Shown: positions 35,402 through 58,873 of the stretch, in pieces
Position numbering within the stretch: position 1 is the first letter of the stretch
Layout of the letters: the number at the start of each line of letters is the position of its first letter
Source of the DNA: Crocinitomicaceae bacterium
GTDB taxonomy: Bacteria; Bacteroidota; Bacteroidia; Flavobacteriales_D; Crocinitomicaceae
DNA length: 64,000 nt
Assembly (NCBI GenBank): GCA_037189645.1
Contig: JBBCIY010000002.1
Location: 460,922 to 524,921, forward strand
Direction of reading: 5' to 3'
The notes under the pieces: generated by a model
Told to the model about the DNA's origin: nothing
The model's database searches: none
Seen by the model: only the letters and a program-made list of their open reading frames with translations
Made by a program: the position numbers and the translations under genes

Positions 35402-37042
35402 TTGCTATATATGAAAATACGAATTTACTTTAATTTCTGTTCAGTGGAAAAGTCGGCCGCCTCAATGCTGCTTATTCTTTTTATTTTGCTGACAGGGACT
35501 TCAAACGCTCAGAAAAGTGCGGAAGAGCAGCGATTTGACAGCATCTATTTTGAAACGGCAGTGAATGTTTCCGCGAAAGATATAAACAGGGCGATTAATA
35601 TTGCAGATTCCCTGTACCGGCATTCATCACTGGAAATTCACCAGCTGAAAGCACTGATGCTCTCTTCTTCGTTGTTCCAGCAAAAGGGAGATCTAAAGAC
35701 TTCCATTCAATATGCGAAAAAAGCGGATAAGCTTGCCGTGAAGTATAAGTTTTACGACTGGGAAGCAAGGATAGCCGGATTTTTGTCTACCCAATACCGG
35801 TTGATGGGATTGTATGAAGAAGGAGAAGAATACCTTGAGAAAGGGAAACAGGTAAGCCGTAAGGTGGATAACGAACACATAAAGACGCTGTACCTGGGGT
35901 TGATCTATCAGGAAACAGCCTATTATGAAGTGGAATACGAGGATTACAAGGCTGCTTACAAAGCCGCGAAGAGTGCAGATGTATATTTTGGCCAGATCCA
36001 GGATGAGCTGAATAAGAATTATTTCCTGGCGACGAACCAGGAGCTTTTCGGAAGGATCTGCATCGGATTGAAAGAATGGGATGAAGCGCTCGCTCATTTA
36101 AATGAAGCACTGGACAAACTCACACGGGTGACACAGAAAAGTGCGATGCTCAGCGGGTTTATATACAGTGGATTAGGGCGGGTCTATCTTGAGAAGAAAG
36201 ACCTGGCTGCCGCATTTGAAAATCTCCGTAAGGCTGAAGAGCTGGTAGAGCAAGCCGATTACCTGGGACTGAAAATTGAAGTTTACAAAACACTCGCAGA
36301 TTATTACCAGTCGACTGAAGATTACGCCCAATCTTCGCTATACAATACCAAGTATGTTGAAGCATTGGAGTTAAACGAAAAGAAAAAGAAGGAGTCAATT
36401 ACTGACTTTGTCAATTCCACGAAGTCTCAGGGAAAAGTGCTGGCATACAATAGGAATGTGCTGCTGATCGTGTCAATAGTGCTGTGCATTGTAATTATTT
36501 TAACGCTCATCCTGCACAGAAGAAGCCGGAAACGTGATTTTGAACGTTTCAAGGCCGTAATGAACAAAATGAGACAAAACCAGTACCTGAAAGAACAGCT
36601 GCCTGAGAAAGAAATAAATGACAAGAAAGAGCCGGAAAAGAAAAAGCTGATGTCGGATGCGGTTGAATCAAAGATCCTGAATGATCTGGAAGAGTTTGAA
36701 AAGGGAACCAGGTATACGGATAAGCATATTTCACTTACGCTTCTTGCGGGAATGTTGAACACCAATACCAAATATCTTTCTTATGTGCTGAACACACACA
36801 AGAATAAAGATTTTAATACCTATATAAATGAACTCCGCATCAACTATATCATTGAAAAAGTCGAAAAGAACAATGCGTTCAGGAATTATAAGTTAAGCGC
36901 CCTTGCGGATGAATGCGGTTTTTCATCCCACAGTAAATTTTCAGCTGTTTTTAAATCTGTAACGGGCTTTTCCCCGTCCATCTTTTTAGAATACCTGGAA
37001 AAAAGCAGGCTGGGGCAACAGGATGTTTCTGCTGTCAGCTGA
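35402..37042 (+). CDS. TPR-repeat/AraC-family HTH transcriptional regulator (membrane-anchored)
   Basis: 546 aa. Signal/TM, TPR-like repeats, internal TM (VLLIVSIVLCIVIILTLIL). C-terminal AraC HTH (YIIEKVEKNNAFRNYKLSALADECGFSSHSKFSAVFKSVTGFSPSIF). Common Bacteroidota architecture. Confidence 0.8.
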   Translation: MLYMKIRIYFNFCSVEKSAASMLLILFILLTGTSNAQKSAEEQRFDSIYFETAVNVSAKDINRAINIADSLYRHSSLEIHQLKALMLSSSLFQQKGDLKTSIQYAKKADKLAVKYKFYDWEARIAGFLSTQYRLMGLYEEGEEYLEKGKQVSRKVDNEHIKTLYLGLIYQETAYYEVEYEDYKAAYKAAKSADVYFGQIQDELNKNYFLATNQELFGRICIGLKEWDEALAHLNEALDKLTRVTQKSAMLSGFIYSGLGRVYLEKKDLAAAFENLRKAEELVEQADYLGLKIEVYKTLADYYQSTEDYAQSSLYNTKYVEALELNEKKKKESITDFVNSTKSQGKVLAYNRNVLLIVSIVLCIVIILTLILHRRSRKRDFERFKAVMNKMRQNQYLKEQLPEKEINDKKEPEKKKLMSDAVESKILNDLEEFEKGTRYTDKHISLTLLAGMLNTNTKYLSYVLNTHKNKDFNTYINELRINYIIEKVEKNNAFRNYKLSALADECGFSSHSKFSAVFKSVTGFSPSIFLEYLEKSRLGQQDVSAVS

Positions 37043-37362
37043 TGTTTTTTGAAGCGAAGATCAAACCTCAGAAAGATTCAATAAAACAGAGAGGTAGAAT
37101 ACGGATGGAAGAAGTGTTAAATGATTTCAACGCAGCTGACCGGACCGGTTTTCTACGATAAAATAAAAAATGAAGGAAGTTATGAAGAGCTGTTCACTGT
37201 TTGTAATATATGTATTAACGTGTTATTTGTTAGCTTTTTAAATGGTATTTTGTGCTGTCTGAATTCGGTAAAACGGATACAGTTATTTTTTTAGGGCAGG
37301 TTATTTCGTACTACATTTGCGCCTCCATTTCCAAACTGATCACTGAATATGAAAATTAAAAA

Positions 37363-38748
37363 ATGAAAAAGAAAGCAATACTGTTAACTTCTTGTAGCTT
37401 ATGCTTATTTACCACTGTCTTTTTTGGAATGCTGGTATTTACATGTCCTGCGCAAACGAGCGTGACACGTATTTATACTGATCATCAAGGATTTTTTACC
37501 AGCGCTAGCTCCAGTCCTCACAGTGTGGATGTGGCTACGCATCATCTTCTGGCATTCCAGACCGGCTCAACGGTATGGTCAACCGGAGTGAACGATGATG
37601 TGCTGTCTGCAAATACCGTGAATTTTGTACCGCTGGAATTCCAGGCAATGCCCGCAACGGTGCATGGATACCAGACAAATGGCGCGTTTATCGGGATCGG
37701 CCGGCAATATGGCGGTTTCTGGGGTGACAACGGGTGCTCTCCGGCGGTAAGTCCTCCTTTTGGGAATGACATTTCAGCTTATCTTACAGATGGGATCCAG
37801 GGACTTGATTTATCTACGGCAATTTTTAATATAGGAGGAAATATCGCTTATACAGTTAACAATATCTATGAGTTTATGATAGGGGACGGCATCCCCGACA
37901 TCATTGTCACTCAAACAGGTGATGCCGGTGGATCGCAGGACTATTTTCGTTTCCGGGATTCCTATGGTAATATTGTAGGAACACAGAAAGCGATTAATTT
38001 CACCTCCGTTGATGCGGTCGCTTATCCTTTCTGGAAATTCTACAATATGGGAAATCTTGGCTGTGGCGGTTCTGCTGCAGGTACAAGGCCGCTTCGTATT
38101 TTAGCATTCGATCTGGCTGATCTCGGAATTACGGCATCCAATTACATGAACATCGCGACATTCGAGCACCAGCTGAGCCCGACAAGCGATGTGGCTTTTG
38201 TCGCCTACAATACGCTTTCTATTGATATACTCCCGGTTACGCTTGTCAATTTCAATGCGGAAATGCGCGGAAGACAGGTGTTGCTCACCTGGGAAACGGC
38301 GTCCGAAATAAACAATGATCTTTTTACTGTTGAAAGAAGCTCAGACGGTTTTGTCTGGGAAAAGGTATTGACCAGGAAAGGGGCCGGTACATCAAATGAA
38401 CTTTTGTTTTATGAGGAAACAGATCCGTTCCCGTTGCAGGGAACAGCCTATTACCGTCTGAAACAAACAGATTTCAGTGGAAATTATACGTATTCGGATA
38501 TCGTGGCGGTCAACGTAAACAGGGAACTGGAGATCTACCCGAATCCCGTTTCCGGGATACTTTCCATAAGAGGCGGTAATAATGGAGATATCAAAATCGT
38601 GAATGCGTTGGGGGCAGATGTTACGGGGCAGGTTGTATTTGTAAACAAGAGCCCGGGTTTTATACAGGTAAATTTTTCAAACCTTAGGAGAGGATATTAT
38701 TTTATTCATTACGAAGCAGAAGTATATCCTGTTATTGTGATGGATTGA
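37363..38748 (+). CDS. Secreted hypothetical protein, T9SS type-A cargo
   Basis: 461 aa with a signal peptide. C-terminal Por_Secre_tail (LEIYPNPVSGILSIRGG...GYYFIHYEAEVYPVIVMD). Confidence 0.7.
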   Translation: MKKKAILLTSCSLCLFTTVFFGMLVFTCPAQTSVTRIYTDHQGFFTSASSSPHSVDVATHHLLAFQTGSTVWSTGVNDDVLSANTVNFVPLEFQAMPATVHGYQTNGAFIGIGRQYGGFWGDNGCSPAVSPPFGNDISAYLTDGIQGLDLSTAIFNIGGNIAYTVNNIYEFMIGDGIPDIIVTQTGDAGGSQDYFRFRDSYGNIVGTQKAINFTSVDAVAYPFWKFYNMGNLGCGGSAAGTRPLRILAFDLADLGITASNYMNIATFEHQLSPTSDVAFVAYNTLSIDILPVTLVNFNAEMRGRQVLLTWETASEINNDLFTVERSSDGFVWEKVLTRKGAGTSNELLFYEETDPFPLQGTAYYRLKQTDFSGNYTYSDIVAVNVNRELEIYPNPVSGILSIRGGNNGDIKIVNALGADVTGQVVFVNKSPGFIQVNFSNLRRGYYFIHYEAEVYPVIVMD

Positions 38749-38879
38749 CGTTATTGAATGTTATAGTAGTTTCTATTGTTAGCACAGGTTAGGTAAACTT
38801 CAGGGGAGCAGAAATGTTCCCCCGGAGTCTTTTATAAGTAGTGGATGGTTAGTTAAGTAGTAGATTGTGATTTCTACGG

Positions 38880-38912
38880 AAAGGCTGTTTCTTTTTGAAG
38901 CAGCCTTTTTTA
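38880..38912 (+). terminator. Intrinsic terminator downstream of the 37363-38748 gene
   Basis: AAGGCTG (38880-38886) pairs with CAGCCTT (38900-38906), followed by TTTTTTAAT. Sequence is related to the terminator at 49778-49812. Confidence 0.5.
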
Positions 38913-39247
38913 ATGGGTATAGGAAAGTGAAATAATTACAGGATAAAAGAATTACTCCGGGGTGTGGAATACAGAATTTAAAAGAAGGTTTTTTCCATGC
39001 TTTTGAGCTTTTTTTCGCCGGTTTCTATGCCGCGGTATTTTTCCCGGTGATCTGAATAGAGGTAAATAAGCAGAAATAGATTTGTAAAGAAGTAATTGTC
39101 TTGTTTTCAAATGGTAACAGTTGTGTCTGAAAAGGTGAAATGCTGTTTAAATTCATGAATACGGATATACATTCTTAAAAATAAGGACCCATAGCGGTCT
39201 ATCTTCGCACCGAATTTTTTAACAAATCTTAAATAACTATTTTCATT

Positions 39248-39910
39248 ATGAAGAGACTATTAACAACACTTTGTCTTTCATGTATGTATTTATTGGTACA
39301 TGGAAGTCCGGTACATGTTTCATGTGGCGATGATGTTAGTGTCATACAAGACCACTACTCAATTAGTTTTGGTGACGCCATAGAGGCAGGTATCTCAACA
39401 GACCTTTCTTTATCTATTTCATGGAGAGTCGCTCCTCAGGCAGGAGTGAGCAAAACTTCCGGTTTAGGAAAAACCACAGGTAATCTGGTATTTTCCCAGC
39501 CTGGAAAATACCAGATTACTTTCCAGATTCCTGCTCACGGAGATCATCCGGCGAAAACGGAAACGGTTACTGTAGAGGTAAGCAATGTAAAAATGATGTT
39601 TGATACAAAGAACATCGGCTTTTCAAAAGAGCTTACGACAGGAGATGTTTCCGGGATTGTGATGACGGTTCCGGTAACCGTAGAAACGTATGACGGGCAG
39701 GCTTATGGTTATACCGCACGGGAAATTCAGACAACCGGTGTGGCGAAAGTATCCTCACGTCTGAAAGACGGAAGAGTGGTGCTGAAAGACGGGCTTAACG
39801 AGCTGGCCTTTGAATTGTCGGGAGCTGTTTCTCAGCAGGGAAACATCCAGTTCCGTGTTTATGATGACAAAGGAGAAGCTGTATTTTTTAATTATTCAAT
39901 TACTAACTAA
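39248..39910 (+). CDS. Hypothetical secreted protein, co-oriented 5 bp upstream of the giant adhesin
   Basis: 220 aa with a signal peptide (MKRLLTTLCLSCMYLLVHG). Beta-rich. 5-bp gap to the next gene suggests co-transcription. Confidence 0.5.
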   Translation: MKRLLTTLCLSCMYLLVHGSPVHVSCGDDVSVIQDHYSISFGDAIEAGISTDLSLSISWRVAPQAGVSKTSGLGKTTGNLVFSQPGKYQITFQIPAHGDHPAKTETVTVEVSNVKMMFDTKNIGFSKELTTGDVSGIVMTVPVTVETYDGQAYGYTAREIQTTGVAKVSSRLKDGRVVLKDGLNELAFELSGAVSQQGNIQFRVYDDKGEAVFFNYSITN

Positions 39911-39915
39911 CACAC

Positions 39916-42900
39916 ATGAAGAAGAAATTACTTTTCAATAAAGCAAAGTATCTATCCGCGCTCATCGGAGCCGGGTTTATGGCTTTGTTTGCTTCAGAAG
40001 TTCATGCACAGCAGACGGGGTGTAATCCTCTTCAGCCGTATGACCAGATCCAGTCAGGGTTCCATACCACGATCGCGACACGTCCGGATGGTACGTTCCT
40101 GATCTGGGGAGAAGGTGCAAGGGCAGACGGGCCCGGTACGAATGCTGCGGCTAACAATCATTTGTCACCAGTACAGATAGCTCCTAATCCGGGAGTTCCT
40201 GCGGAAGACTATGCTTACACAGGAACACCTTTGTTTGCTACACTGGCGACTCAGGTTAACAATGCTTTCCAGGGGTTTGTATTGTCCACAGACGGCTTAT
40301 GGTCGTGGGGAGCAAACAACGTAGCGGTAGGAACAGATCTGGATAATATTGCCGGGTTTGCCCAGATTAATATGCCGGTTGGAGTAGCACCTGCAGATGT
40401 AAAGAATATGTCCGCTACATGGGGGGCATTGGTGCTGTTGACACATTCGGGAGATATATGGGTAAGCGCACGCCACACTTCCTTTAACGGGATCGGGGGA
40501 ACTGCTCCGGGAGCTGCAGACAATTATTGGTCAAGAGTAACCAGAAGCATAGCGGGAAATCCGCCGTTGACCGGGGTAACTGAGTTCAGGATAACACCGG
40601 CAGGTGTTTTTGCAGTAACTACCACAGGACAGTGGTATACATGGGGACCTGCTACTTATCTCGGAGACGGGTCGGCTGTAGCTGAGCGCAACCGTGCTAC
40701 TCCTATGACGAAGCCGTTTACAGGCAACCCGGTGATGATTGCGATGACACGTGACTGTTCAACTACTAGTATTTCTACTATTACAACTGCTACCAGATCG
40801 AGCTATTATGCCATCGATCCGGTAGACGGTAAGCTGTATGCGCTTGGTGGTAACGCCAGCGGACAGTTGGGACAAAATAACACGACGCATTCTACAGGTT
40901 GGGTGCCTGTTCAGAATCCGACGAATACAGGAGATCTTGATAACGTAATGTTCGTGGCGGGAAATGACCACGATGCGTGGACAACTCAATCCGGAGCTGT
41001 GGCATGTATCCTTACTACCGGAGAATTGTACTCATGGGGGAGCAACAGTAACGGAATGGTCGGTGGACCAGTAGGAACTACAAGATACATGCTTCCGAGA
41101 GTTCCGGGTGGATTTAACCCTGGAGACGTTGCAACGTATGTGGAAGTAGGTGGGCACACAACGGCGACGATGAAACAATGTGCTGAAAGATACTGCTATG
41201 TAGGCCACAAGATTGGTGGTTCGATGGGAGATGGTGTAGCGACAGATCAGAGTATAACATCATTCGACTGTGCCAACACTCCTGAAGGATTCATTTGCGG
41301 ATCAAGTACGTATGATGCAGGAGACGTGCCGCTTTCTTACGAGAACGGAAATCCTGCGACACACTATTATATATGTGGAGATGAAATCTATCTGGGGGCA
41401 ACGCCTCCCGATCCGGATAACGGAATGAACAACAACGTTGCGTCAGGAGCAAACAATATGGGAACAAACGGGGACAATGCGAACGGTGTAGACGAAGACG
41501 GTCTGGATGAATTGACATTGGTTCATTCCGCAGTTAACCCGAATTTCTCGACTACCCTTACATATGTAAATAATTCCACAGATCCTGCTAATATCTATGC
41601 ATGGGTGGACTGGAACGACGATGGTGTCTTCAGCGAAGACGAAAGTTTTATCGCTACAGGACTGGCACCGGATGTGGATCCACAAAACATTAACCTTGTC
41701 TGGAACGGAGTGAATACTTCGTGCGGGTACAAATACATGCGTGTCAGAATTTCAACAAACGCTCTGGCAGATGATCCGGCAACTGTAAACATTGATGAAA
41801 GAAGTTGCCAGCCATTGATCCACGGTGAGGTGGAAGATTACTTCGTAGATGTGGATATCGCATCAAACCCGAATGGAGACTGTGACGGTGACGGAGTATC
41901 AAACGGAGTGGAAATCGCAAACGGAACAAATCCGAACGATCCGTGTAACTTGATTGTAGCAAATCAGGACGTAGCACCAAGTGCAGCTTGGTTGGCAGAT
42001 GATTGTGACGGTGACGGCGTAACGAACGGTCAGGAGGTTACTGACAATACAGATCCGTTTGATCCTTGTGATTTGAATTCAGTACATATTACACTTCCAC
42101 AGGGAGGAGCATGGTTAAACGGAGATTGCGACGGTGACGGCGTAACGAACGGACAGGAAGTTATAGACGGTACAGATCCGACAGACCCTTGTAATTTAAT
42201 TGTCGCAAGTCAAAGCATTCCGCCAAGTGCAGCCTGGAACAACGGAGACTGTGACGGTGACGGAGTAACAAACGGAACAGAAGTTACGAACGGAACAGAT
42301 CTGTTGAACCCATGTGAATACAATCCTGCAAATCAAGTAATCGCAAATGTTACAGCAGCATGGAACAACCTTGACTGTGATGGCGATGGAGTAACGAACG
42401 GACAGGAAATTACGGATGGAACGCAACCATTGAATCCTTGTAATTATCTTGTGGCAAGCCAGGTTATTGCCAATGTTACAGCAGCATGGAACGCGTTAGA
42501 TTGTGACGAAGACGGCGTAACGAACGGTCAGGAAGTTACAGACAATACAGATGTAAACGACCCGTGCGATTACAATGTCGCAAGTCAGAACATTGCGAAC
42601 GTGGGAACACTTTGGAACAATGCGGATTGTGACGGTGATGGTGTAACAAACGGTCAGGAGGTTACAGACAATACAGACGTAAATGATCCGTGCGATTACA
42701 ATGCAGCAAGCCAGGTTATTGCCAATGTTACAGCAGCATGGAACGCATTAGACTGTGACGGCGACGGCGTAACGAACGGTCAGGAAGTTACAGATGGTAC
42801 GAATCCGAACGATCCATGTGATTACAATGCAGCAAACCAGGTTATTGCCAATGTTACAGCAGCATGGAACGCGTTAGACTGTGACGGCGACGGAGTAACA

Positions 42901-45900
42901 AACGGACAAGAGGTTACTGACAATACAGATGTAAATGATCCGTGTGATTACGATGTGGCAAGTCAGGTGATTGCAAACGTTACAGCAACTTGGAACAATG
43001 CAGACTGTGACGGTGATGGTGTAACGAACGGTCAGGAAGTTACAGATAATACAGATGTAAACGATCCGTGTGATTACGATGTGGCGCACCAGAACATTGC
43101 AAATGTAGGAGCACAATGGAATGCGGCAGACTGTGATGGTGATGGTGTAACAAACAGTCAGGAAGTGACGGATAATACAGATCCGAACGACCCGTGTGAT
43201 TACGATGTGGCAAGCCAGGTTATTGCCAATGTTACAGCGGCATGGAACGCATTAGACTGTGACGGCGACGGCGTAACGAATGGTCAGGAAGTTACTGACA
43301 ATACAGACATAAATGATCCGTGTGATTACAATGTAGCAAGTGTTACGCTTCCACAAGGCGGAGCATGGAATGCGGCAGACTGTGACGGCGACGGAGTAAC
43401 GAACGGTGATGAGGTAAATCCTACAGATCCGGGAGACACTCCTACAAATCCATTCGACCCTTGTGATTTGAATTCGGCAGACATTACTCTTGCACAAGGA
43501 GGAGCATGGTTAAACGGCGACTGTGACGGCGATGGTGTAACAAATGGCCAGGAGGTTACAGATAATACAGATGTAAACGACCCGTGTGATTACAATGCAG
43601 CAAGCCAGGTTATTGCCAATGTTACAGCAGCATGGAACGCATTAGACTGTGACGGCGATGGTGTAACAAACGGACAAGAGGTTACAGACGGAACGAATCC
43701 AAATGATCCTTGTAGCTATGATCTTGCAAGCTTTAATCTTGCAAATGTTGGTGCAGGATGGAACGCAGCAGACTGCGACGGCGACGGCGTAACGAATGGT
43801 CAGGAAGTTACAGACAATACAGACTTCAACGATCCGTGTGATCTTGTGGTTGCAAATCAAACACCAGGACTGGCAAGTACAGCTTGGAATAACGGCGACT
43901 GTGACGGTGACGGAGTAACGAATGAGGATGAGGTGAATGACAATACAGATCCATTAGATCCATGTGACCTTGTTGTAGCAAGTCAAACACCAGGACTGGC
44001 AAGTGCAGCTTGGAACAACGGCGACTGTGACGGCGACGGAGTAACGAATGAGGACGAGGTTACTGATAATACAGACATCAACGATCCGTGTGATTTTGTT
44101 ACCGGACACCAGACATTGACTCCTGATCCGGTGGCGTGGGATAACGCAGACTGTGATGGTGACGGAGTAACAAACGGACAAGAAATCGCAGACGGAACAG
44201 ATCCAAACGATCCTTGTAATTACAATGTAGCAAGTCAGGTTCTTGCAAATGTTGGTGCAGGATGGAACAACGCAGACTGTGACGGCGATGGTGTAACAAA
44301 CGGTCAGGAAGTTACTGACAATACAGATCCATTAGATCCATGTGACCTTGTAGTTGCAAATCAAACACCAGGACTGGCAAGCACAGCATGGAATAACGGC
44401 GACTGTGATGGTGACGGAGTAACGAATGAGGACGAGTTGTCTGACAATACAGATCCATTAGATCCATGTGACCTTGTTGTAGCAAGTCAAACACCAGGGC
44501 TGGCAAGTGCAGCATGGAACGCGGCAGACTGTGACGGTGACGGAATAACGAACGGTGATGAGGTTACTGATAATACAGATGTAAATGATCCGTGTGATTA
44601 CAATCCTGCAAACTTTGACATTGTAAATGTTGGTGCAGCATGGAACGCGGCAGACTGCGACGGTGACGGAGTAACAAACGGACAAGAGGTTACTGACAAT
44701 ACAGACTTCAACGATCCGTGTGATCTTGTGGTTGCAAATCAAACACCAGGACTGGCAAGTACAGCTTGGAATAACGGCGACTGCGATGGTGATGGTGTAA
44801 CAAATGAAGACGAGTTGTCTGATAATACAGACATTCACGATCCATGTGACCTTGTTGTAGCAAGTCAAACACCAGGGCTGGCAAGTGCAGCATGGAACGC
44901 GGCAGACTGTGACGGTGACGGAGTAACGAACGAAGACGAGGTTACTGATAATACAGATGTAAATGATCCGTGTGATTACAATCCTGCAAACTTTGACATT
45001 GTAAATGTTGGTGCAGCATGGAACGCAGCAGACTGTGACGGTGACGGAGTAACCAACGGTGACGAAGTTGCGGACGGTACAGACTTCAACGATCCATGTA
45101 GCCTTGTTGTAACACATCAGACAGTAGCGCCAAGCACAGCTTGGAACAACGGTGACTGCGATGGTGACGGAGTAACAAACGAAGACGAGCTGGATGATGA
45201 CACAGACATTCACGATCCGTGTGACCTTGTTGTAGCACATCAAACAGTAGCACCAAGTGCAGCATGGAACACGGCAGACTGTGATGGCGATGGAGTAACC
45301 AACGGTGACGAGCTGAATGACAATACAGATGTAAATGATCCGTGTGACCTTGTTGTAACACATCAAACAGTAGCACCAAGTGCAGCATGGAACGCGGCCG
45401 ACTGTGATGGCGATGGAGTAACCAACGGTGACGAGCTGAATGATGACACAGACATCAACGATCCATGTGATTACTTGTTTACAAGCGTAACAGCAACGCC
45501 AAGTGCAGCATGGAACGCAGCAGATTGTGACGGCGATGGAGTAACCAACGGTGACGAAGTAGCTGACGGAACAGATCCGAACGATCCATGTGATTTTGTA
45601 ACGTTAAGCCAGACAGTAACACCAGGCGCAGCATGGAACGACCTTGACTGTGACGGTGATGGAGTAACCAATGGTGATGAATTAACGAACGGCAATGATC
45701 CGAACGATCCATGTGACTTCACACTGGCAAGCCAGACTGTAACGCCAAGCACAGCATGGAATAACGGAGACTGTGATGGTGACGGTGTAACCAATGGTAA
45801 CGAAGTTACAGACGGTACGAATCCGAACGATCCGTGTGATTACCTGTCAGGAAGCGTAACAGTAACACCAACTACGGTTTGGAACGATGCAGACTGCGAC

Positions 45901-46506
45901 GGTGACGGTGTTACAAATGGCCAGGAGGTTACAGACGGTACAAATCCGAATGATCCATGTGATTACCTGATTGCGAACGTAACGCTTACACAGGGAGGTG
46001 CCTGGAGCGCAGCGGATTGTGACGGTGACGGTGTAACGAATGGAAATGAAGCTACAGACGGTACGAATCCGTTTGACGGATGTGACTTCTTAGTGACAAG
46101 CCAGACTGTTACGCCAAGTGATGAGTGGAACAACGGAGACTGTGACGGCGATGGAATCACGAACGGTGAAGAAACTGGAGGAGGTTCAAACCCACTTGAT
46201 CCATGCGATCCGAAAACATGCGGTATTGATATACCGAATGCGTTTACACCGGATGGTGACGGCATCAACGACGTATGGGTAATTGAAGGAATCGAAAATT
46301 ATCCGGACAACCAGCTGACAGTTTACAACCGATGGGGTAATGTGGTTTACACTGCGGACGGATACCTGAACACATGGGACGGTACGTCAAACAGTAACCT
46401 GAATATTGGCGGCGGAGAGCTTCCTACAGGAACATATTACTATGTCATCGAGACAAATGACGAGACTGTCGGTGTATTGAAAGGATATGTATATATCCAG
46501 CGTTAA
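39916..46506 (+). CDS. Giant cell-surface adhesin: RCC1-like beta-propeller + ~34 tandem TSP3-like Ca-binding repeats + T9SS type-B C-terminal domain
   Basis: 2196 aa. Signal peptide. RCC1-type repeats (GGNASGQLGQNNTTHSTGW; GSNSNGMVGGPVG). About 34 repeats of a 42-aa unit WNxxDCDGDGVTNGQEVTDNTDxNDPCDYxVASQxIANVTAA (DxDxDG Ca-binding, 2 Cys per unit). C-terminal gliding-motility/type-B CTD (CGIDIPNAFTPDGDGINDVWVIEGI...GTYYYVIETNDETVGVLKGYVYIQR). Confidence 0.9.
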   Translation: MKKKLLFNKAKYLSALIGAGFMALFASEVHAQQTGCNPLQPYDQIQSGFHTTIATRPDGTFLIWGEGARADGPGTNAAANNHLSPVQIAPNPGVPAEDYAYTGTPLFATLATQVNNAFQGFVLSTDGLWSWGANNVAVGTDLDNIAGFAQINMPVGVAPADVKNMSATWGALVLLTHSGDIWVSARHTSFNGIGGTAPGAADNYWSRVTRSIAGNPPLTGVTEFRITPAGVFAVTTTGQWYTWGPATYLGDGSAVAERNRATPMTKPFTGNPVMIAMTRDCSTTSISTITTATRSSYYAIDPVDGKLYALGGNASGQLGQNNTTHSTGWVPVQNPTNTGDLDNVMFVAGNDHDAWTTQSGAVACILTTGELYSWGSNSNGMVGGPVGTTRYMLPRVPGGFNPGDVATYVEVGGHTTATMKQCAERYCYVGHKIGGSMGDGVATDQSITSFDCANTPEGFICGSSTYDAGDVPLSYENGNPATHYYICGDEIYLGATPPDPDNGMNNNVASGANNMGTNGDNANGVDEDGLDELTLVHSAVNPNFSTTLTYVNNSTDPANIYAWVDWNDDGVFSEDESFIATGLAPDVDPQNINLVWNGVNTSCGYKYMRVRISTNALADDPATVNIDERSCQPLIHGEVEDYFVDVDIASNPNGDCDGDGVSNGVEIANGTNPNDPCNLIVANQDVAPSAAWLADDCDGDGVTNGQEVTDNTDPFDPCDLNSVHITLPQGGAWLNGDCDGDGVTNGQEVIDGTDPTDPCNLIVASQSIPPSAAWNNGDCDGDGVTNGTEVTNGTDLLNPCEYNPANQVIANVTAAWNNLDCDGDGVTNGQEITDGTQPLNPCNYLVASQVIANVTAAWNALDCDEDGVTNGQEVTDNTDVNDPCDYNVASQNIANVGTLWNNADCDGDGVTNGQEVTDNTDVNDPCDYNAASQVIANVTAAWNALDCDGDGVTNGQEVTDGTNPNDPCDYNAANQVIANVTAAWNALDCDGDGVTNGQEVTDNTDVNDPCDYDVASQVIANVTATWNNADCDGDGVTNGQEVTDNTDVNDPCDYDVAHQNIANVGAQWNAADCDGDGVTNSQEVTDNTDPNDPCDYDVASQVIANVTAAWNALDCDGDGVTNGQEVTDNTDINDPCDYNVASVTLPQGGAWNAADCDGDGVTNGDEVNPTDPGDTPTNPFDPCDLNSADITLAQGGAWLNGDCDGDGVTNGQEVTDNTDVNDPCDYNAASQVIANVTAAWNALDCDGDGVTNGQEVTDGTNPNDPCSYDLASFNLANVGAGWNAADCDGDGVTNGQEVTDNTDFNDPCDLVVANQTPGLASTAWNNGDCDGDGVTNEDEVNDNTDPLDPCDLVVASQTPGLASAAWNNGDCDGDGVTNEDEVTDNTDINDPCDFVTGHQTLTPDPVAWDNADCDGDGVTNGQEIADGTDPNDPCNYNVASQVLANVGAGWNNADCDGDGVTNGQEVTDNTDPLDPCDLVVANQTPGLASTAWNNGDCDGDGVTNEDELSDNTDPLDPCDLVVASQTPGLASAAWNAADCDGDGITNGDEVTDNTDVNDPCDYNPANFDIVNVGAAWNAADCDGDGVTNGQEVTDNTDFNDPCDLVVANQTPGLASTAWNNGDCDGDGVTNEDELSDNTDIHDPCDLVVASQTPGLASAAWNAADCDGDGVTNEDEVTDNTDVNDPCDYNPANFDIVNVGAAWNAADCDGDGVTNGDEVADGTDFNDPCSLVVTHQTVAPSTAWNNGDCDGDGVTNEDELDDDTDIHDPCDLVVAHQTVAPSAAWNTADCDGDGVTNGDELNDNTDVNDPCDLVVTHQTVAPSAAWNAADCDGDGVTNGDELNDDTDINDPCDYLFTSVTATPSAAWNAADCDGDGVTNGDEVADGTDPNDPCDFVTLSQTVTPGAAWNDLDCDGDGVTNGDELTNGNDPNDPCDFTLASQTVTPSTAWNNGDCDGDGVTNGNEVTDGTNPNDPCDYLSGSVTVTPTTVWNDADCDGDGVTNGQEVTDGTNPNDPCDYLIANVTLTQGGAWSAADCDGDGVTNGNEATDGTNPFDGCDFLVTSQTVTPSDEWNNGDCDGDGITNGEETGGGSNPLDPCDPKTCGIDIPNAFTPDGDGINDVWVIEGIENYPDNQLTVYNRWGNVVYTADGYLNTWDGTSNSNLNIGGGELPTGTYYYVIETNDETVGVLKGYVYIQR
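41860..46215 (+). repeat. In-frame tandem DNA repeat array, period 126 bp (about 34 copies, many near-identical)
   Basis: Recurrent blocks such as gcagcatggaacgc(a/g)ttagactgtgacggcgacgg(c/a)gtaac(g/a)aacggtcaggaagttac(a/t)ga(c/t)aatacagatgtaaa(c/t)gatccgtgtgattac recur at 126-bp spacing (e.g. 42487, 42613, 42739). Coding: the period is a multiple of 3 and there are no non-repeat spacers. Copy-number variation and assembly collapse are possible. Confidence 0.85.
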
Positions 46507-46541
46507 GAGTGAAATTTTTCAAAAATTGAAAAAAAATAAAA

Positions 46542-47465
46542 ATGAAAACAATTAAGTTTTTAGCAGGTTGTTTTACACTGGTGCTTCTTGGAAGCACCAG
46601 TGCAACCGCGCAGCAAGACCCTCATTATACACAGTATTTTGACAACATGCTGTTTATCAACCCGGCTTATGCAGGAAGCCGCGGGATGTTGAACATGACC
46701 GGGATACACCGTGAGCAGTGGGTAGGATTTGACGGACGTCCGCGTTCATCCACATTCAGCATTCATTCACCTTTATCCTACGAATCAGTAGGGCTGGGGC
46801 TGACAGCAGTGAACGACAACATCGGGCCGATGAACCAGACAATGTTTTACGCGGATGCGTCCTATACCGTAAAATTTAAGAACCATAAAGGGAAGCTGGC
46901 ATTTGGTGTAAAAGGAGGGATCAACCTGATCAACATCGGGAGAGACGGACTGAACACAGATAATCCGAATGATCCTAAATTGTTGCAGAACATCCGTAAC
47001 AATATCAATCCGAACTTCGGATTCGGGATCTATTACCATACTCCAGGATTCTTTATCGGAGTAAGTACACCGAAGATTCTGGAACAAAGCTATGACGAGC
47101 TGAGTACAACCAACCTGGAACGCCGTCACTACTTTGGAACAATCGGAGGGGTTATTCCCGTATCGGACAAATGGAAGCTGAGACCAACTTCATTGATAAA
47201 AATAACAGAAGGAGCTCCATTGAGCCTGGACCTGACAATGGCTGCGATCTATAACGAAAAACTGTGGTTGGGAGCAAATTACCGTTTGCTGGCAGCTTTT
47301 GGAGCGTTTGTACAGGTACAGATTTCTCCTCAGTTCAAGATCGGGGTAGCAAGTGATTTCGGTACACAGAAATTGAGAAACTATAACCACGGATCTTTTG
47401 AGATCATGTTGTCTTACGACTTCACGTTCAAAAAAGAAGGTATTCGTTCACCTCGTTATTTCTAA
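46542..47465 (+). CDS. porP: T9SS membrane protein PorP/SprF family
   Basis: 307 aa. Signal peptide then the family-defining start QQDPHYTQYFDNMLFINPAYAG. Beta-barrel profile. Immediately downstream of the type-B CTD adhesin, as for SprB/SprF. Confidence 0.85.
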   Translation: MKTIKFLAGCFTLVLLGSTSATAQQDPHYTQYFDNMLFINPAYAGSRGMLNMTGIHREQWVGFDGRPRSSTFSIHSPLSYESVGLGLTAVNDNIGPMNQTMFYADASYTVKFKNHKGKLAFGVKGGINLINIGRDGLNTDNPNDPKLLQNIRNNINPNFGFGIYYHTPGFFIGVSTPKILEQSYDELSTTNLERRHYFGTIGGVIPVSDKWKLRPTSLIKITEGAPLSLDLTMAAIYNEKLWLGANYRLLAAFGAFVQVQISPQFKIGVASDFGTQKLRNYNHGSFEIMLSYDFTFKKEGIRSPRYF

Positions 47466-47483
47466 CCAAACAGACAAAAGAAA

Positions 47484-49742
47484 ATGAAAGCAATATTATT
47501 AGTAGTAGCATGTAGTTTATCGTTGTCCTTGTTTGGGCAAGCCGGAAAATTGAAGAAGGCGGATAATTATTTCAACCGCCTGTCCTATGCGTATGCGGCA
47601 GAATTGTATGAAGAGCTGATCGGTTCGGAAGTCGACAGCCCTGAATTGAAAAGCAAGCTGGCGTACAGTTACCTGAAAATGGATAACTATACGAAATCTG
47701 TTGAGTATTACGGAAAGATGATCGAATCTTCGGAAGCAAAGCCGGAAGATTATTACCATTATTCCTATGTGCTGAAGCAGACCGGGAATTATTCTGAAAG
47801 TGACAAGTGGATGAACAAATTCAGCCAGTCTGTTACAGCAGATACCAGGAGCCAGTTGTTTTTGTCCAATACGGCATACAAGTCGAAGATAGAAAAGAAC
47901 CAGCCGTTCTTTTCACTGGAGAACCTTTCCCTGAACACTTCTTCCGCTGATTTCGGAGGATATTACAACCCGGCACAGGATCGCATGTATTTCATTACGG
48001 CGCGAAGAAAACGGGCATTTGTTAAAAATGAATGGTCATGGGATGCGAGAAGATTCCTCGATTTGTACCAGGTTTCCGTCAGCCAGGAAAATAAACTGGG
48101 CGATCCGAAACGGGTTTCCAAGGTAAATACCAAATTCCACGAGGGACCGGTTGCGTTTGCACCGGACGGGAAAAAGGTTTATTTCACTAGAAACAATATT
48201 TCGTCCGGAAGCAAGCGACGTGACGGGCAGAAAATTCAGAACCTGAAATTATATATTGCCGACGTTGATGAAAAGGGAAATTGGATAAATGAACAGGAAT
48301 TCCCGTACAATTCGAAGGATTATTCAGTAGGGCATCCGACCATTACCCAGGACGGAAAAACAATATACCTGGTATCCGACAAGCCGGGAGGAATCGGTGG
48401 AGCGGATATTTACAAAGTAGCAATCCAGGAAGACGGGACATTCGGAGAAATGATTAACCTCGGAAACAAGATCAACACGGAAGGACAGGAAATGTTCCCG
48501 TTCATTGATTCCGAAGGAAGACTGTTCTTCTCAACGGATGGCCACCCGGGACTGGGAGGACTGGATGTGTTCGTTGCTTTCTTTGAAAACGGAAACGCCG
48601 GGAAGATCCACAACGTTGGGTTGCCGATCAACAGCCAGTACGATGATTTTGCATTCAACATGTCAAAAGACTTCAAAACAGGCTTTCTTTCTTCCAACCG
48701 TGAAGGCGGAAAGGGAGGAGATGACATCTATTCGGTGCAGTTGATTCGTCCGTTTGTATTTGGCGTAACCATCAAAGGAACGGCAAAAGACAAGAAAGGT
48801 GAAATCGTTCCGTTCGCAAAAATCGACCTGAAAGATGACAAAGGAAACATCATCGAAACGGTTACGGCTGACGAAAACGGAGCCTATACATTTGAAGCGG
48901 AATACGAGAAGAATTACGGTCTGGGAGGTTCAAAAGCAGACTACTTCGACGGGAAGAATACAGCAAGCACATTCACGGATGAGCAAGTTGTGATCGCAGA
49001 TGTTGTATTGGAAAAAGACCCTGGTTTGTCTTTGTACGCATTGATCACCGACAAGAAAACAGGACAGCCTCTGGAAGGAGTACAGGTTTACCTGGTTGAC
49101 AACATGACAGACAAGTCGAAGAAAATCGTAACACCTGTAACGGGAGATTTCAGAGAAGCACTGTTTGGCAAGAAACTGAACGACAGAGGAAGCTATAACC
49201 TCATTCTTCAGAAAGAAGGGTATTTTTCCAAGACAGTGACTTACAATACACTGTTTGAAAGACCTGGACAGTACGACATTCACGCGATTCTTGATCTGGG
49301 ACTGGATCCGGAGGTAAAGGATTTGTCTGAAATGGTACAGATCAACCCGATCAACTTCGACCTGAACAAGTATAACATTCGCCCTGACGCTGCGAAAGAG
49401 CTGGATAAGATCGTAGAAGTGATGAACAAATACCCGCACATGGTAGTGGAATTAGGTTCACACACCGACTGTCGCGCCTCAAAGGCATATAACATGAAAT
49501 TGTCTGATAACCGTGCAAAATCATCGGCTGAGTATATCAAGAAAAGGATTACCAACCCGGAGCGCATCTACGGTAAAGGATACGGGGAATCCCGTTTGCT
49601 GAACGGATGCGAATGTGAAGGGAACGTGAAATCCGATTGCCCGGAAGAAGAGCATGAAAAGAACAGACGTACAGAATTTAAAGTAATCTCTACAGGTGAT
49701 GATAAGCTAAAAGTGAACAACACCAGTACAGACAGTTTTTAG
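47484..49742 (+). CDS. OmpA-family protein with TPR, PD40/WD40-like beta-propeller and C-terminal OmpA peptidoglycan-binding domain
   Basis: 752 aa. Signal peptide. TPR-like N-terminus. Tol-Pal-type PD40 repeats (GGADIY, GGLDVF, GGDDIY). CarboxypepD_reg-like Ig domains. OmpA_C (NFDLNKYNIRPDAAKELDKIVEVMNKYPHMVVELGSHTDCRASKAYNMKLSDNRAKSSAEYI). Third member of the usual CTD-B / PorP / OmpA triad. Confidence 0.85.
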   Translation: MKAILLVVACSLSLSLFGQAGKLKKADNYFNRLSYAYAAELYEELIGSEVDSPELKSKLAYSYLKMDNYTKSVEYYGKMIESSEAKPEDYYHYSYVLKQTGNYSESDKWMNKFSQSVTADTRSQLFLSNTAYKSKIEKNQPFFSLENLSLNTSSADFGGYYNPAQDRMYFITARRKRAFVKNEWSWDARRFLDLYQVSVSQENKLGDPKRVSKVNTKFHEGPVAFAPDGKKVYFTRNNISSGSKRRDGQKIQNLKLYIADVDEKGNWINEQEFPYNSKDYSVGHPTITQDGKTIYLVSDKPGGIGGADIYKVAIQEDGTFGEMINLGNKINTEGQEMFPFIDSEGRLFFSTDGHPGLGGLDVFVAFFENGNAGKIHNVGLPINSQYDDFAFNMSKDFKTGFLSSNREGGKGGDDIYSVQLIRPFVFGVTIKGTAKDKKGEIVPFAKIDLKDDKGNIIETVTADENGAYTFEAEYEKNYGLGGSKADYFDGKNTASTFTDEQVVIADVVLEKDPGLSLYALITDKKTGQPLEGVQVYLVDNMTDKSKKIVTPVTGDFREALFGKKLNDRGSYNLILQKEGYFSKTVTYNTLFERPGQYDIHAILDLGLDPEVKDLSEMVQINPINFDLNKYNIRPDAAKELDKIVEVMNKYPHMVVELGSHTDCRASKAYNMKLSDNRAKSSAEYIKKRITNPERIYGKGYGESRLLNGCECEGNVKSDCPEEEHEKNRRTEFKVISTGDDKLKVNNTSTDSF

Positions 49743-49777
49743 GTGGTTAGGTGAAGTAGTAAGTAGTAGTAGATGGG

Positions 49778-49812
49778 AAAGGCTGCCTTTATAGGCAGCC
49801 TTTCTTTCATTT
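49778..49812 (+). terminator. Rho-independent terminator after the OmpA-family gene
   Basis: Perfect 10-bp inverted repeat AAAGGCTGCC (49778-49787) / GGCAGCCTTT (49794-49803), loop TTTATA, followed by CTTTCATTT. Confidence 0.6.
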
Positions 49813-49879
49813 AACTGTTTAATGTTTCACCGTAAATTATAATTATCTGATTGATTTTTTAGGACACGATCAAGCAGGA

Positions 49880-50119
49880 TCATTTTTTAGGTTGGGCGAT
49901 GTTTCCTTTATTGTTATCATATTCCCTGGTTTCGTTTTTGAAGAAAAAAGATAAAATGATCAGTAAGAAAAAAGAAACACCCAAGATGATCACGAGTGTA
50001 ATTAACGTCTTTTTTATGTTTTCCGAACTCATTATATCTATTCCCCAGATGCCCAGAATAAAATAGGTGGCAATAAAAAGAATAACAGAGGTAACAATAA
50101 TTCCAATAATATATTTCAT
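49880..50119 (-). CDS. Small two-TM membrane protein (last gene of the minus-strand module)
   Basis: 79 aa, two hydrophobic helices separated by a short loop. 20 bp downstream of the SPFH gene on the same strand. Confidence 0.35.
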   Translation of the reverse strand: MKYIIGIIVTSVILFIATYFILGIWGIDIMSSENIKKTLITLVIILGVSFFLLIILSFFFKNETREYDNNKGNIAQPKK

Positions 50120-50139
50120 TTTGACGAGTATTTATCTGG

Positions 50140-51141: not shown

Positions 51142-51198
51142 AAGGTTGAATGTTTATGCGGTTTAATTTTAAACTTAAAAATGGCAGATTGGTTTTCT

Positions 51199-52557: not shown

Positions 52558-52722
52558 AGTTGTTGTATAGGTCTATTGTAAACAAATATATAAGAAACTG
52601 TTTTATTTCAATCTTTTGGAAGCAATAAAAATCATTCAGTCGCAATTTATGCAAACTTCTTTCACATTTTGCCGGTTGATGTCGTAGTAATGTGATTTCC
52701 GGCGTATCATTGTGATGGGGGA

Positions 52723-54057: not shown

Positions 54058-54211
54058 AAAAATATAAGTCGTTATTTGTTACCAAATTTAGTAAGAAATC
54101 CACTATGGCTTATTTTGTTTTAAACGGGAATACGTTTTTTAGACGTTCTGACAAGTTATTTTTACGCTGGATTTCAGGTTAAATTCTATACTTGTATTAA
54201 TTTTACATCTG

Positions 54212-58777: not shown

Positions 58778-58873
58778 GAGAGGTATGGAAGAATAAATCA
58801 GTGTTTGCTGAACAGGCAAGAATTTATTTTTTCTATATTTATTCTTCATTGTAATCGACGTAACTGCTACTTT

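What the first reader, a model, noticed from the sequence alone, without database searches (positions are those of the whole stretch)
39916..46506. 2196-aa adhesin with ~34 near-identical 126-bp tandem repeats encoding TSP3-like Ca-binding units
The 42-aa unit (WNxxDCDGDGVTNGQEVTDNTDxNDPCDYxVASQxIANVTAA) carries a DxDxDG calcium-binding loop and two conserved Cys. Many units are identical at DNA level over more than 100 bp. That implies recent expansion or gene conversion and a high potential for strain-to-strain copy-number (phase/length) variation, as well as assembly collapse. The N-terminal RCC1-like propeller plus the type-B CTD makes this a SprB-like but architecturally distinct surface fibre.
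Basis: seen in the sequence. Interest (0 to 1): 0.6.

Follow-up and report, generated by a model that had tools for sequence, protein, structure and literature searches.

The report
Calcium-repeat surface adhesin, type IX secreted
This is a real 2196-residue cell-surface fibre of a marine or freshwater Flavobacteriales bacterium, with a propeller-shaped head, a stalk of 35 probable calcium-binding repeats and a type IX secretion anchor; it is an ordinary member of a common but experimentally unstudied protein class, and its repeats are much less alike than first reported.

Summary
The ORF (39916-46506, +, 2196 aa) and its repeat array are real. There are 35 in-frame units of 41-42 aa (one of 47). 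The core D-C-D-G-D-G-V-T-N-x-x-E ... D-P-C is almost invariant.

"Near-identical" is wrong:
- Mean pairwise DNA identity between units is 67%.
- The longest exact shared stretch is 89 bp, so none exceeds 100 bp.
- Only units 16-25 look recent; they form a 378-bp, three-unit higher-order duplication at 91-97% identity.

HMMs support the domain reading:
- Head: Sec signal, RCC1-like seven-blade propeller, GEVED domain.
- Stalk: TSP3_bac x35.
- Tail: T9SS type B CTD.

The gene sits in a tight four-gene unit: 220-aa unknown protein, adhesin, PorP/SprF-like shuttle, PorE-like OmpA protein. This matches the statically anchored Fjoh_3952-type cassette, not mobile SprB.

The cassette is conserved across Crocinitomicaceae with 14, 31, at least 32 and 35 units. 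Edge units are positional orthologues. Interior units are homogenised within each lineage.

Short-read (k=31) assemblies break exactly at the repeated core, and the Wandonia haliotis orthologue carries N-gaps there. The count of 35 is therefore plausible but unverified.

The most novel by-product is the conserved, unannotated 220-aa partner family.

The parts
35402..37042 (+). TPR + AraC-type HTH regulator. It is syntenic with the cassette in relatives and is a candidate regulator.
   Evidence: Pfam TPR_12 and HTH_18. A 523-549 aa TPR/HTH_18 gene precedes the cassette in W. haliotis, F. taffensis and MAG L011.
38880..38912 (+). Terminator-like hairpin plus T-run that ends the upstream gene (37363-38748). 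It marks the 5' limit of the transcription unit.
   Evidence: Read directly from the sequence: AAAGGCTGTTTC-TTTTT-GAAGCAGCCTTT followed by TTT. The consensus scan did not list it.
39248..39910 (+). 220-aa secreted protein of unknown function, the conserved upstream partner. Its stop is 5 nt before the adhesin start.
   Evidence: No Pfam family. It is 56-95% identical across Crocinitomicaceae with an invariant PAHGDHP motif. 355 clusters match at E<=1e-3. It holds the same position upstream of RCC1/GEVED-headed giants in L010, L011, L013, L014 and L017.
39916..46506 (+). Adhesin gene, 2196 aa.
39916..40008 (+). Sec signal peptide (aa 1-31, MKKKLLFNKAKYLSALIGAGFMALFASEVHA|QQ).
   Evidence: Read from the translation: a basic n-region, a hydrophobic core and a VHA|Q site. 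No predictor was run.
40048..41268 (+). RCC1-like seven-blade beta-propeller head (aa ~45-451).
   Evidence: Pfam RCC1 36.1 bits (cut-off 21.7). WD40_RLD scores 74 bits, below its cut-off of 150. AF2 pLDDT 78, pTM 0.75. Foldseek PDB top hits are UVR8/RCC1, E 2e-17, TM 0.78.
41590..41847 (+). GEVED domain (aa 559-644).
   Evidence: Pfam PF20009 45.3 bits, cut-off 24.4, E 1.6e-11 when the segment is scanned alone.
41863..46248 (+). Array of 35 units of 41-42 aa (one of 47 aa). Each has an EF-hand-like DxDxDGxxNxxE loop, a DxxDPC motif and a ~18-aa variable spacer ending in W.
   Evidence: Composition is 299 acidic, 1 basic and 71 Cys residues.
43756..45015 (+). Units 16-25, the only recently duplicated block. 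It is a 378-bp (3-unit) higher-order repeat with 84-89 bp exact identities.
46225..46503 (+). T9SS type B C-terminal sorting domain (aa 2104-2196).
   Evidence: PF13585 CHU_C 100.9 bits (cut-off 27). TIGR04131 64.7 bits (cut-off 35).
46542..47465 (+). PorP/SprF-family outer-membrane protein, the presumed cognate shuttle and anchor.
   Evidence: PF11751 268 bits. TIGR03519 269.7 bits (cut-off 90.55).
47484..49742 (+). PorE-like protein (PD40 propeller, CarboxypepD_reg, OmpA_C peptidoglycan-binding domain).
   Evidence: Pfam domains. NCBIfam CHU_0125_OmpA 451 bits and T9SS_PorE 327 bits, both below their equivalog cut-offs.
49777..49812 (+). Terminator-like hairpin (11-bp perfect stem, 6-nt loop, T-rich tail). 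It marks the 3' limit of the unit.
   Evidence: Read directly from the sequence.

Best explanation
The gene encodes a long, statically anchored surface adhesin of a Wandonia-related Crocinitomicaceae bacterium. It is exported and displayed by the type IX secretion system.

Proposed path:
1. The N-terminal signal peptide takes the protein through Sec.
2. The 93-aa type B C-terminal domain is recognised by the PorP/SprF-like protein encoded 35 nt downstream. That protein escorts it from the T9SS translocon and keeps it bound at the outer membrane.
3. The PorE-like protein encoded next ties this complex to peptidoglycan, so the fibre is fixed rather than driven along the gliding track.
4. Because the anchor is C-terminal, the N-terminal RCC1-like propeller plus GEVED domain is the distal, ligand-binding head.
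5. Between head and anchor lie 35 units of about 42 aa. Each carries an EF-hand-like DxDxDGxxNxxE loop, a second acidic DxxDPC motif and two invariant cysteines.
6. With a net charge of about -298 and a single basic residue, this segment can only be compact or rigid when loaded with Ca2+ (probably up to two ions per unit) and stapled by disulfides. It then serves as a stalk that sets how far the head projects.
7. The interior of the array evolves by unequal recombination or gene conversion in whole, in-frame units. This changes stalk length between lineages without destroying the protein.

Shown here: the ORF, the domains, the operon order, synteny, the within-lineage homogenisation of units and the assembly behaviour.

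Inferred: secretion route, static anchoring, Ca2+ binding, disulfides, adhesion and the ligand.
For: - Domain calls: TSP3_bac E 1e-140, CHU_C E 4e-29, TIGR04131, RCC1, GEVED.
- The head model is confident and matches RCC1/UVR8 propellers.
- The PorP/SprF and PorE-like genes follow with 35- and 18-nt gaps. The 220-aa gene precedes by 5 nt. Hairpin terminators bracket the four genes.
- Published work shows that type B CTD substrates need cognate PorP/SprF shuttles. It also shows that Fjoh_3952, whose operon includes the PorE homologue Fjoh_3950, forms static foci, while SprB-type mobile substrates lack a PorE-like neighbour (PMC12618676; PMC9143113).
- D1, C2, D3, D5, G6, N9, E12 and C23 are invariant in 34 in-register units, with pN/pS 0.21.
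- The array has 299 acidic residues against 1 basic residue.
- The same cassette occurs in W. haliotis, F. taffensis and MAGs with 14 to 35 units.
- First and last units are positional orthologues, while 33 of 35 units are closer to a unit in the same genome than to any W. haliotis unit.
Against: - No experiment exists on this protein or, in the searched literature, on any TSP3_bac/T9SS adhesin.
- The AF2 model of six units was unusable (pLDDT 43), so the stalk geometry is unknown.
- No solved structure resembles the unit by sequence.
- The eukaryotic TSP_3 family did not appear among the Pfam matches. 'Ca-binding' therefore rests on motif logic.
- The PorE-like protein scores below NCBIfam equivalog cut-offs.
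- F. taffensis, which carries the orthologous cassette, is a gliding bacterium (PMC3236050 title), so a motility role is not excluded.
- The ligand is unknown.
Confidence: 0.7

Rival explanations
1. It is a mobile gliding-motility adhesin. It would be loaded on the gliding track by its PorP/SprF partner and propelled along the cell, as SprB is.
For: - It has a type B CTD plus an adjacent PorP/SprF-family gene.
- Databases routinely name such proteins 'gliding motility-associated C-terminal domain-containing protein'.
- F. taffensis, which has the orthologous cassette, glides.
- Some non-SprB type B substrates do move (PMC12618676).
Against: - A PorE-like gene is in the operon. In F. johnsoniae this goes with static foci, and mobile substrates lack it.
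- No SprB repeat family appears among the Pfam matches.
- No sprC/sprD-like partners are seen upstream.
Confidence: 0.15
2. The array is mainly a polyanionic Ca2+ sink or matrix component (cation buffering, biofilm or mineral nucleation), not a spacer for an adhesive head.
For: - The charge is extreme: 299 acidic against 1 basic residue in 1454 aa.
- About 70 putative Ca sites follow from the motif count.
Against: - The conserved propeller + GEVED head and the anchoring genes point to a displayed binding module.
- In F. taffensis, cadherin/Big_9 repeats are inserted within the array of the orthologous stalk. Related cassettes (L013/L014) have stalks made of such repeats. Stalk chemistry is therefore interchangeable.
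Confidence: 0.08
3. The gene is real, but the copy number (35) and the order of interior units are assembly artefacts (collapse or mis-join within units 6-28).
For: - Independent k=31 assemblies of two runs, identical to the window in the flanks, do not span 42480-45413.
- Contigs of relatives break in the array.
- W. haliotis has two N-gaps in its array, and a MAG homologue is fragmented.
- The exact 2196-aa product is absent from the protein collection although its three operon neighbours are present.
- Truly identical copies would be invisible after collapse.
Against: - As assembled, no 99-mer is repeated. Reads or k-mers of 99 nt or more can therefore resolve it.
- The frame is intact with no N.
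- The length is in line with orthologues of 2020 and at least 2077 aa.
Confidence: 0.25

Closest known systems
Flavobacterium johnsoniae Fjoh_3952 / Fjoh_3951 / Fjoh_3950 cassette (type B CTD substrate, cognate PorP/SprF shuttle, PorE homologue; PMC12618676, PMC9143113)
   Same: Same gene order: substrate, PorP/SprF-like, PorE-like. Same type B CTD. The substrate is a putative adhesin that stays in static foci.
   Different: The passenger domains here are an RCC1-like propeller, GEVED and 35 TSP3_bac units. There is also an extra conserved 220-aa gene upstream. No sequence comparison with Fjoh_3952 was run here.
SprB / SprF of F. johnsoniae (gliding adhesin)
   Same: A giant repetitive surface protein with a type B CTD and an adjacent PorP/SprF-family partner.
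   Different: No SprB repeat family appears among the Pfam matches. It is about one third of SprB's size (from memory, SprB is about 6500 aa). A PorE-like gene is present, whereas the sprB operon lacks one (PMC9143113).
Orthologous cassette of Fluviicola taffensis DSM 16823 (CP002542, about 3852923-3858304; locus L010)
   Same: Same five-gene neighbourhood, head (65% identity), CTD (76%), and first and last repeat units.
   Different: 1793 aa. It has only 14 TSP3-type units, interrupted by five cadherin-like/Big_9 repeats.
Myxococcus xanthus CglD (COMP/TSP3-like DxDxDG repeats in a gliding-associated adhesin; bioRxiv 10.1101/2023.10.19.562135)
   Same: A bacterial surface adhesin with a run of DxDxDG Ca-type motifs. 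AlphaFold also gives a poorly structured model there. Its function is Ca2+-dependent.
   Different: CglD is a lipoprotein with a VWA/integrin-like domain and 12 motifs, in a different phylum with a different secretion route. The NCBIfam CglD match here is negligible (18 bits against a cut-off of 400).
Ca2+-rigidified repeat stalks of RTX adhesins (e.g. Marinomonas MpIBP, Pseudomonas LapA); comparison from memory only
   Same: The design principle is shared: a cell-anchored end, a long array of acidic Ca-binding repeats as an extender, and ligand-binding domains at the distal end.
   Different: Those use BIg-type domains of about 100 aa, type I secretion and an N-terminal anchor. Here the units are about 42 aa EF-hand/TSP3-like, secretion is by T9SS and the anchor is C-terminal.

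Membership tests
T9SS type B CTD substrate | C-terminal type B sorting domain (PF13585 / TIGR04131) at the extreme C-terminus | tested here: met
   PF13585 100.9 bits (cut-off 27) at aa 2104-2194. TIGR04131 64.7 bits (cut-off 35).
T9SS type B CTD substrate | N-terminal Sec signal peptide | tested here: met
   Read from the translation: MKKK..., a hydrophobic core and VHA|QQ. No predictor was available.
T9SS type B CTD substrate | Genetically linked cognate PorP/SprF-family gene | tested here: met
   46542-47465, TIGR03519 269.7 bits (cut-off 90.55), 35 nt downstream.
T9SS type B CTD substrate | Secretion depends on the T9SS and on the cognate shuttle | not testable with these tools
   Needs genetics. 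The window does encode two type A CTD proteins (166-2967, 37363-38748), so the organism uses a T9SS.
PorE-linked, statically anchored type B cassette (Fjoh_3952 type) | PorE homologue encoded in the same operon | tested here: inconclusive
   The 752-aa protein has PD40, CarboxypepD_reg and OmpA domains, which is the PorE architecture. T9SS_PorE scores 327 bits (cut-off 600) and CHU_0125_OmpA scores 451 bits (cut-off 620), both below the curated thresholds.
PorE-linked, statically anchored type B cassette (Fjoh_3952 type) | Immobile surface foci | not testable with these tools
   Needs microscopy.
Bacterial TSP3 repeat (PF18884) | HMM match above the gathering score, repeated | tested here: met
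   457 bits (cut-off 25), 26 separate stretches. 35 motif copies.
Bacterial TSP3 repeat (PF18884) | Ca2+ binding by the DxDxDG loops | not testable with these tools
   Only motif conservation and charge are available.
Eukaryotic thrombospondin type 3 repeat (PF02412; TSP/COMP 'wire') | Match to PF02412 or to solved TSP/COMP chains | tested here: not met
   PF02412 is absent from the Pfam hits at E<=0.01. PDB sequence and profile searches find no TSP/COMP chain, only calmodulin loops at E 2.6.
RCC1-like beta-propeller | RCC1 repeats and a seven-blade fold | tested here: met
   PF00415 36.1 bits (cut-off 21.7). Foldseek top hits are UVR8/RCC1, E 2e-17, TM 0.78 on the target. The whole-domain model PF25390 scores 74 bits, below its cut-off of 150.
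GEVED domain (PF20009) | HMM match above the gathering score | tested here: met
   45.3 bits (cut-off 24.4) at aa 559-644.
SprB family | SprB repeats and a sprC-sprD-sprB-sprF operon without porE | tested here: not met
   No SprB repeat family appears among the Pfam matches at E<=0.01. The upstream genes are a 220-aa unknown and a type A CTD protein. A PorE-like gene is present.

The most novel reading that the evidence does not exclude
The unannotated 220-aa protein (39248-39910, invariant PAHGDHP motif) may be an obligate partner of RCC1/GEVED-headed giant surface proteins. It could be a second subunit, a tip cofactor or a periplasmic chaperone of the head.

Together with the head it would form a portable two-gene 'adhesive tip' module. 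Evolution would then graft this module onto interchangeable stalks (TSP3 units, cadherin/Big_9, DUF11).

A second open possibility is that the 42-aa unit (EF-hand-like loop + DPC motif + Trp spacer, two Cys) is a structurally new Ca/disulfide rod module. No solved relative was found for it.
Probability: 0.3. Interest if true: 0.5.

Novelty: new member of a known kind. Interest (0 to 1): 0.3.

Why it matters
T9SS type B adhesins with TSP3_bac stalks are abundant in Flavobacteriia. Hundreds of mostly 'partial' database entries exist. The open-access literature search found no paper combining thrombospondin type 3 repeats, type IX secretion and adhesins.

This locus offers three things:
- A clean, complete example with a defined operon.
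- A natural length series among orthologues (14, 31, at least 32 and 35 units) for testing whether stalk length matters.
- A candidate new accessory protein.

Practically, it documents that such genes break k=31 assemblies at predictable points, and that 'partial' annotations of this family are assembly products. None of this overturns current understanding.

Tried and rejected
- AlphaFold2 on six units with a nine-row self-alignment gave pLDDT 43 and pTM 0.20. The model is unusable, so no fold search was run on it.
- A PDB sequence search with six units, and a profile of 34 units, found nothing. The only match was calmodulin loops at E 2.6.
- The sigma-70 promoter and terminator scan gave counts equal to shuffles and missed the two hairpins visible by eye. 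Bacteroidota promoters are not covered.
- Rfam on 37000-50300 found no family.
- The exact-sequence look-up of the W. haliotis 'partial' protein found no contig. The locus was recovered through the genome scan instead.
- The literature search for TSP3 + T9SS + adhesin returned zero papers. TSP3 + gliding returned nothing relevant.
- Phase variation was considered and rejected. All units are in frame, and reading the upstream sequence by eye shows no long homopolymer tract.
- Horizontal acquisition was considered and not supported. The cassette is syntenic across the family, and the gene's GC (0.48) is only modestly above the window's (0.44).
- The 19-bp hairpin inside the 220-aa ORF was checked for covariation in relatives. 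None was found. It is perfect only in the window and in an 87%-identical relative.

Full report

The ORF list shows one open frame at 39916..46506 on the + strand, 2196 aa. Its translation has no internal stop.

Tandem Repeats Finder reports overlapping arrays of period 123 and 126 bp between 42123 and 46071. It also reports higher-order periods of 252 and 378 bp. Matches are only 65-82%.

Counting the motif DCD[G/E]DG gives 35 units from aa 650 to 2111 (nt 41863-46248). Spacing is 41 or 42 aa, apart from one unit of 47 aa. The 35th unit merges into the C-terminal domain.

In 34 in-register units D1, C2, D3, D5, G6, N9, E12 and C23 of the core are invariant, and the Trp four residues before the core is present in 33.

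What does not hold is 'near-identical' and 'identical over more than 100 bp':
- Mean pairwise DNA identity between units is 67%, with a maximum of 96.8%.
- The longest exact repeat is 89 bp.
- No 99-mer occurs twice in the gene.
- In the 24-codon core the proportion of synonymous differences is 0.69, against 0.15 for nonsynonymous ones.

Most units are therefore old and held by selection on the protein.

The exception is units 16-25 (43756-45015). A three-unit, 378-bp block has been duplicated there recently, with partner units 91-97% identical and exact runs of 84-89 bp.

**2. What the protein is**

Pfam gives four kinds of match:
- TSP3_bac: 457 bits, E 1e-140, 26 stretches.
- CHU_C: 100.9 bits, aa 2104-2194.
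- RCC1 repeats and the RCC1-like domain: aa 121-443.
- GEVED: aa 559-644, 45.3 bits, when the linker region is scanned alone.

NCBIfam adds the T9SS type B sorting domain TIGR04131 (64.7 bits, cut-off 35).

An AlphaFold2 model of aa 32-650, built on 19 homologues, is confident (pLDDT 78, pTM 0.75). Its best solved-structure matches are the seven-blade propellers UVR8 and RCC1 (E 2e-17, TM 0.78 on the target).

The N-terminus reads as a Sec signal peptide with a VHA|QQ site (by eye).

The array is extraordinarily acidic. It has 299 Asp+Glu, one Lys/Arg and 71 Cys in 1454 residues.

The first half of each unit, D-C-D-G-D-G-V-T-N-x-x-E, has the spacing of an EF-hand loop. The only PDB sequence echo, insignificant at E 2.6, is calmodulin's loops. 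The second half, D-x-T-D-x-x-D-P-C-D, is a further acidic cluster closed by the second Cys.

The eukaryotic TSP_3 family did not appear among the Pfam matches, and no TSP/COMP chain was found in the PDB searches. 'TSP3-like' should therefore be read as membership of the bacterial family PF18884, not as demonstrated homology to thrombospondin.

A model of six units failed (pLDDT 43). The CglD authors report the same for their TSP3/COMP-like region.

**3. Context**

The gene is the second of four tightly spaced, co-oriented genes:
- 39248-39910: 220 aa, no Pfam family. Its stop is 5 nt before the adhesin start.
- 39916-46506: the adhesin.
- 46542-47465: PorP/SprF family. TIGR03519 scores 269.7 bits against a cut-off of 90.55.
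- 47484-49742: a 752-aa protein with PD40 propeller, CarboxypepD_reg and OmpA_C domains. Its best NCBIfam matches are CHU_0125_OmpA and T9SS_PorE, both below equivalog cut-offs.

Hairpin-plus-T-run terminators can be read at 38880-38912 and 49777-49812. These four genes therefore look like one transcription unit.

A TPR/AraC regulator (35402-37042) lies upstream. It is syntenic in relatives.

**4. Relatives**

The head (aa 1-650) finds only 28 proteins at E<=1e-5. The best is a Wandonia haliotis 'GEVED domain-containing protein, partial' at 82% identity.

The W. haliotis JCM 16083 locus (L002) has the same neighbourhood and a 2077-codon frame with 32 recognisable units. Two N-runs lie inside the array, which is why NCBI's protein stops at residue 1104.

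The same cassette occurs elsewhere:
- The complete genome of Fluviicola taffensis: 1793 aa, 4 + 10 TSP3-type units, interrupted by five cadherin-like/Big_9 repeats.
- A 909-kb MAG contig: 2020 aa, 31 units.
- Another Crocinitomicaceae MAG, in fragmented form.

The window is therefore from a Wandonia-related member of Crocinitomicaceae. Its exact species was not identified.

The first four units and the last unit are recognisably positional orthologues across genomes. Examples are the NPCEY unit 4 and the terminal DPCDPKxCG unit. Interior units match promiscuously.

At the DNA level, 33 of 35 window units are closer to another window unit than to any W. haliotis unit. The non-repeat head is 74% identical between the two species. 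This is the signature of unequal crossing-over or gene conversion acting on the interior of an old array.

The CTD is better conserved (76-90%) than the head (65-82%). This is consistent with co-evolution with the PorP-like partner.

A profile of six units retrieves 453 proteins at E<=1e-10. Most carry CHU_C. Most are named 'gliding motility-associated C-terminal domain-containing protein' and are flagged 'partial'. The TSP3_bac + type B CTD architecture is thus common.

**5. Assembly question**

The exact 2196-aa product is not in the 15-billion-protein collection, although its three operon neighbours (and FtsZ) are. Those sit on an NCBI contig of 524,921 bp and on Logan contigs.

Two Logan contigs are 100% identical to the window. 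One ends at 42479 and the other begins at 45414. The first and last repeated 31-mers of the gene start at 42450 and 45413. The breaks are therefore exactly what a k=31 graph must do and say nothing about sequence differences.

Contigs from an 87%-identical and a 95%-identical relative break at unit 1 and unit 34 respectively.

As assembled, the array has no repeated 99-mer, so it could be resolved from ordinary 150-nt reads. Perfectly identical extra copies would be invisible, however. The count of 35 is plausible but unverified.

**6. Mechanism**

Published work on F. johnsoniae and P. gingivalis shows three things:
- Type B CTD substrates need a cognate PorP/SprF-family shuttle, usually encoded next door.
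- The CTD dictates the final location.
- Fjoh_3952, whose operon also encodes the PorE homologue Fjoh_3950, forms only static foci. The mobile substrates (SprB, Fjoh_4750, Fjoh_1123) have no PorE-like neighbour.

A PG1035-PorP-PorE complex anchored to peptidoglycan has also been proposed (PMC12618676; PMC9143113).

By gene order and domain content, the present cassette is of the Fjoh_3952 type. I therefore commit (confidence about 0.7) to the following model:
1. Sec export.
2. T9SS translocation guided by the CTD and the PorP-like pair.
3. Static anchoring through the PorE-like OmpA domain.
4. A Ca2+-loaded, disulfide-stapled stalk of 35 units.
5. A distal propeller + GEVED binding head.

The steps after the domain calls are inference.

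Three rivals are kept at lower weight: a mobile gliding adhesin, a Ca2+ sink or matrix role, and an artefactual copy number.

**7. By-product**

The 220-aa upstream protein is more conserved (56-95% identity) than the adhesin head. It has an invariant PAHGDHP motif and no Pfam family.

A profile search finds 355 clusters at E<=1e-3. Most are 210-260 aa. A few are giant proteins in which its first sub-domain is repeated and overlaps Ig/PKD-like families.

In every context that could be read, the gene lies 2-8 nt upstream of a giant surface protein with an RCC1-like and/or GEVED head. Those contexts are L002, L010, L011, L013/L014 and L017. The last two are remote members, at E 1e-30 and 3e-13.

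This association is, as far as I could find, undescribed. It is the most novel lead here, but only six contexts were examined.

**8. Verdict**

The feature is real and the domain interpretation is essentially right. The claim of near-identity, and the 'recent expansion' and 'phase variation' built on it, are wrong except for one three-unit block.

It is a new member of a known kind: a PorP/PorE-linked T9SS type B adhesin with a TSP3_bac stalk. Interest is moderate to low (0.3).

Noticed in passing
window 39248-39910; L010, L011, L013, L014, L017: A 220-aa secreted protein without any Pfam family and with an invariant PAHGDHP motif. It belongs to a family of 355 clusters. In every readable context it is encoded 2-8 nt upstream of an RCC1/GEVED-headed giant surface protein.
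   Followed up: partly
window 39478-39521: A perfect 19-bp hairpin (17-bp exact inverted repeat, 6-nt loop; -26.6 kcal/mol, z -7.7) inside the 220-aa ORF, about 400 nt upstream of the adhesin start. It is kept in an 87%-identical relative and degenerate in other genera. There is no covariation, and its purpose is unknown.
   Followed up: partly
window 11504-21079: The cell-division/cell-wall (dcw) cluster mraW...ftsZ (4813-27870) is interrupted between murD and ftsW by about 7 kb. The insert carries a DUF1275 protein, a histidine kinase/response regulator pair (15009-17063) and an acyltransferase/GNAT fusion (17328-19172).
   Followed up: no
window 58805-62073: The comEC-like gene matches only residues 1-338 of the 648-aa orthologue in relative L009, with a frameshift near 59802. 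It is followed by a NgoFVII-type restriction endonuclease and a C5 cytosine methylase on the opposite strand. This looks like a competence gene truncated next to an R-M cassette.
   Followed up: partly
window 49812-54187: A 4.4-kb segment with three minus-strand genes (an SPFH/Band 7 protein with a SHOCT tail and two unknown ORFs of 452 and 444 aa) is absent from the 95%-identical relative L009. There the PorE-like gene is followed directly by the M20 peptidase.
   Followed up: partly
window 166-2967 (-) and 37363-38748 (+): Two further T9SS substrates with type A CTDs. One has two GEVED domains plus Big_2 repeats. The second sits between the AraC/TPR regulator and the adhesin operon and is absent at that position in W. 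haliotis.
   Followed up: no
L010 (Fluviicola taffensis CP002542, about 3852923-3858304): The orthologous adhesin has five cadherin-like/Big_9 repeats inserted after the fourth TSP3-type unit. This is a natural stalk chimera showing that the spacer modules are exchangeable.
   Followed up: partly
one search hit list (P0006, P0014, P0017): The RCC1 + GEVED head module also occurs with a T9SS type A CTD. In Comamonas (Betaproteobacteria) it occurs with an IPTL-CTERM sorting signal. The head has therefore moved between anchoring systems and phyla.
   Followed up: no
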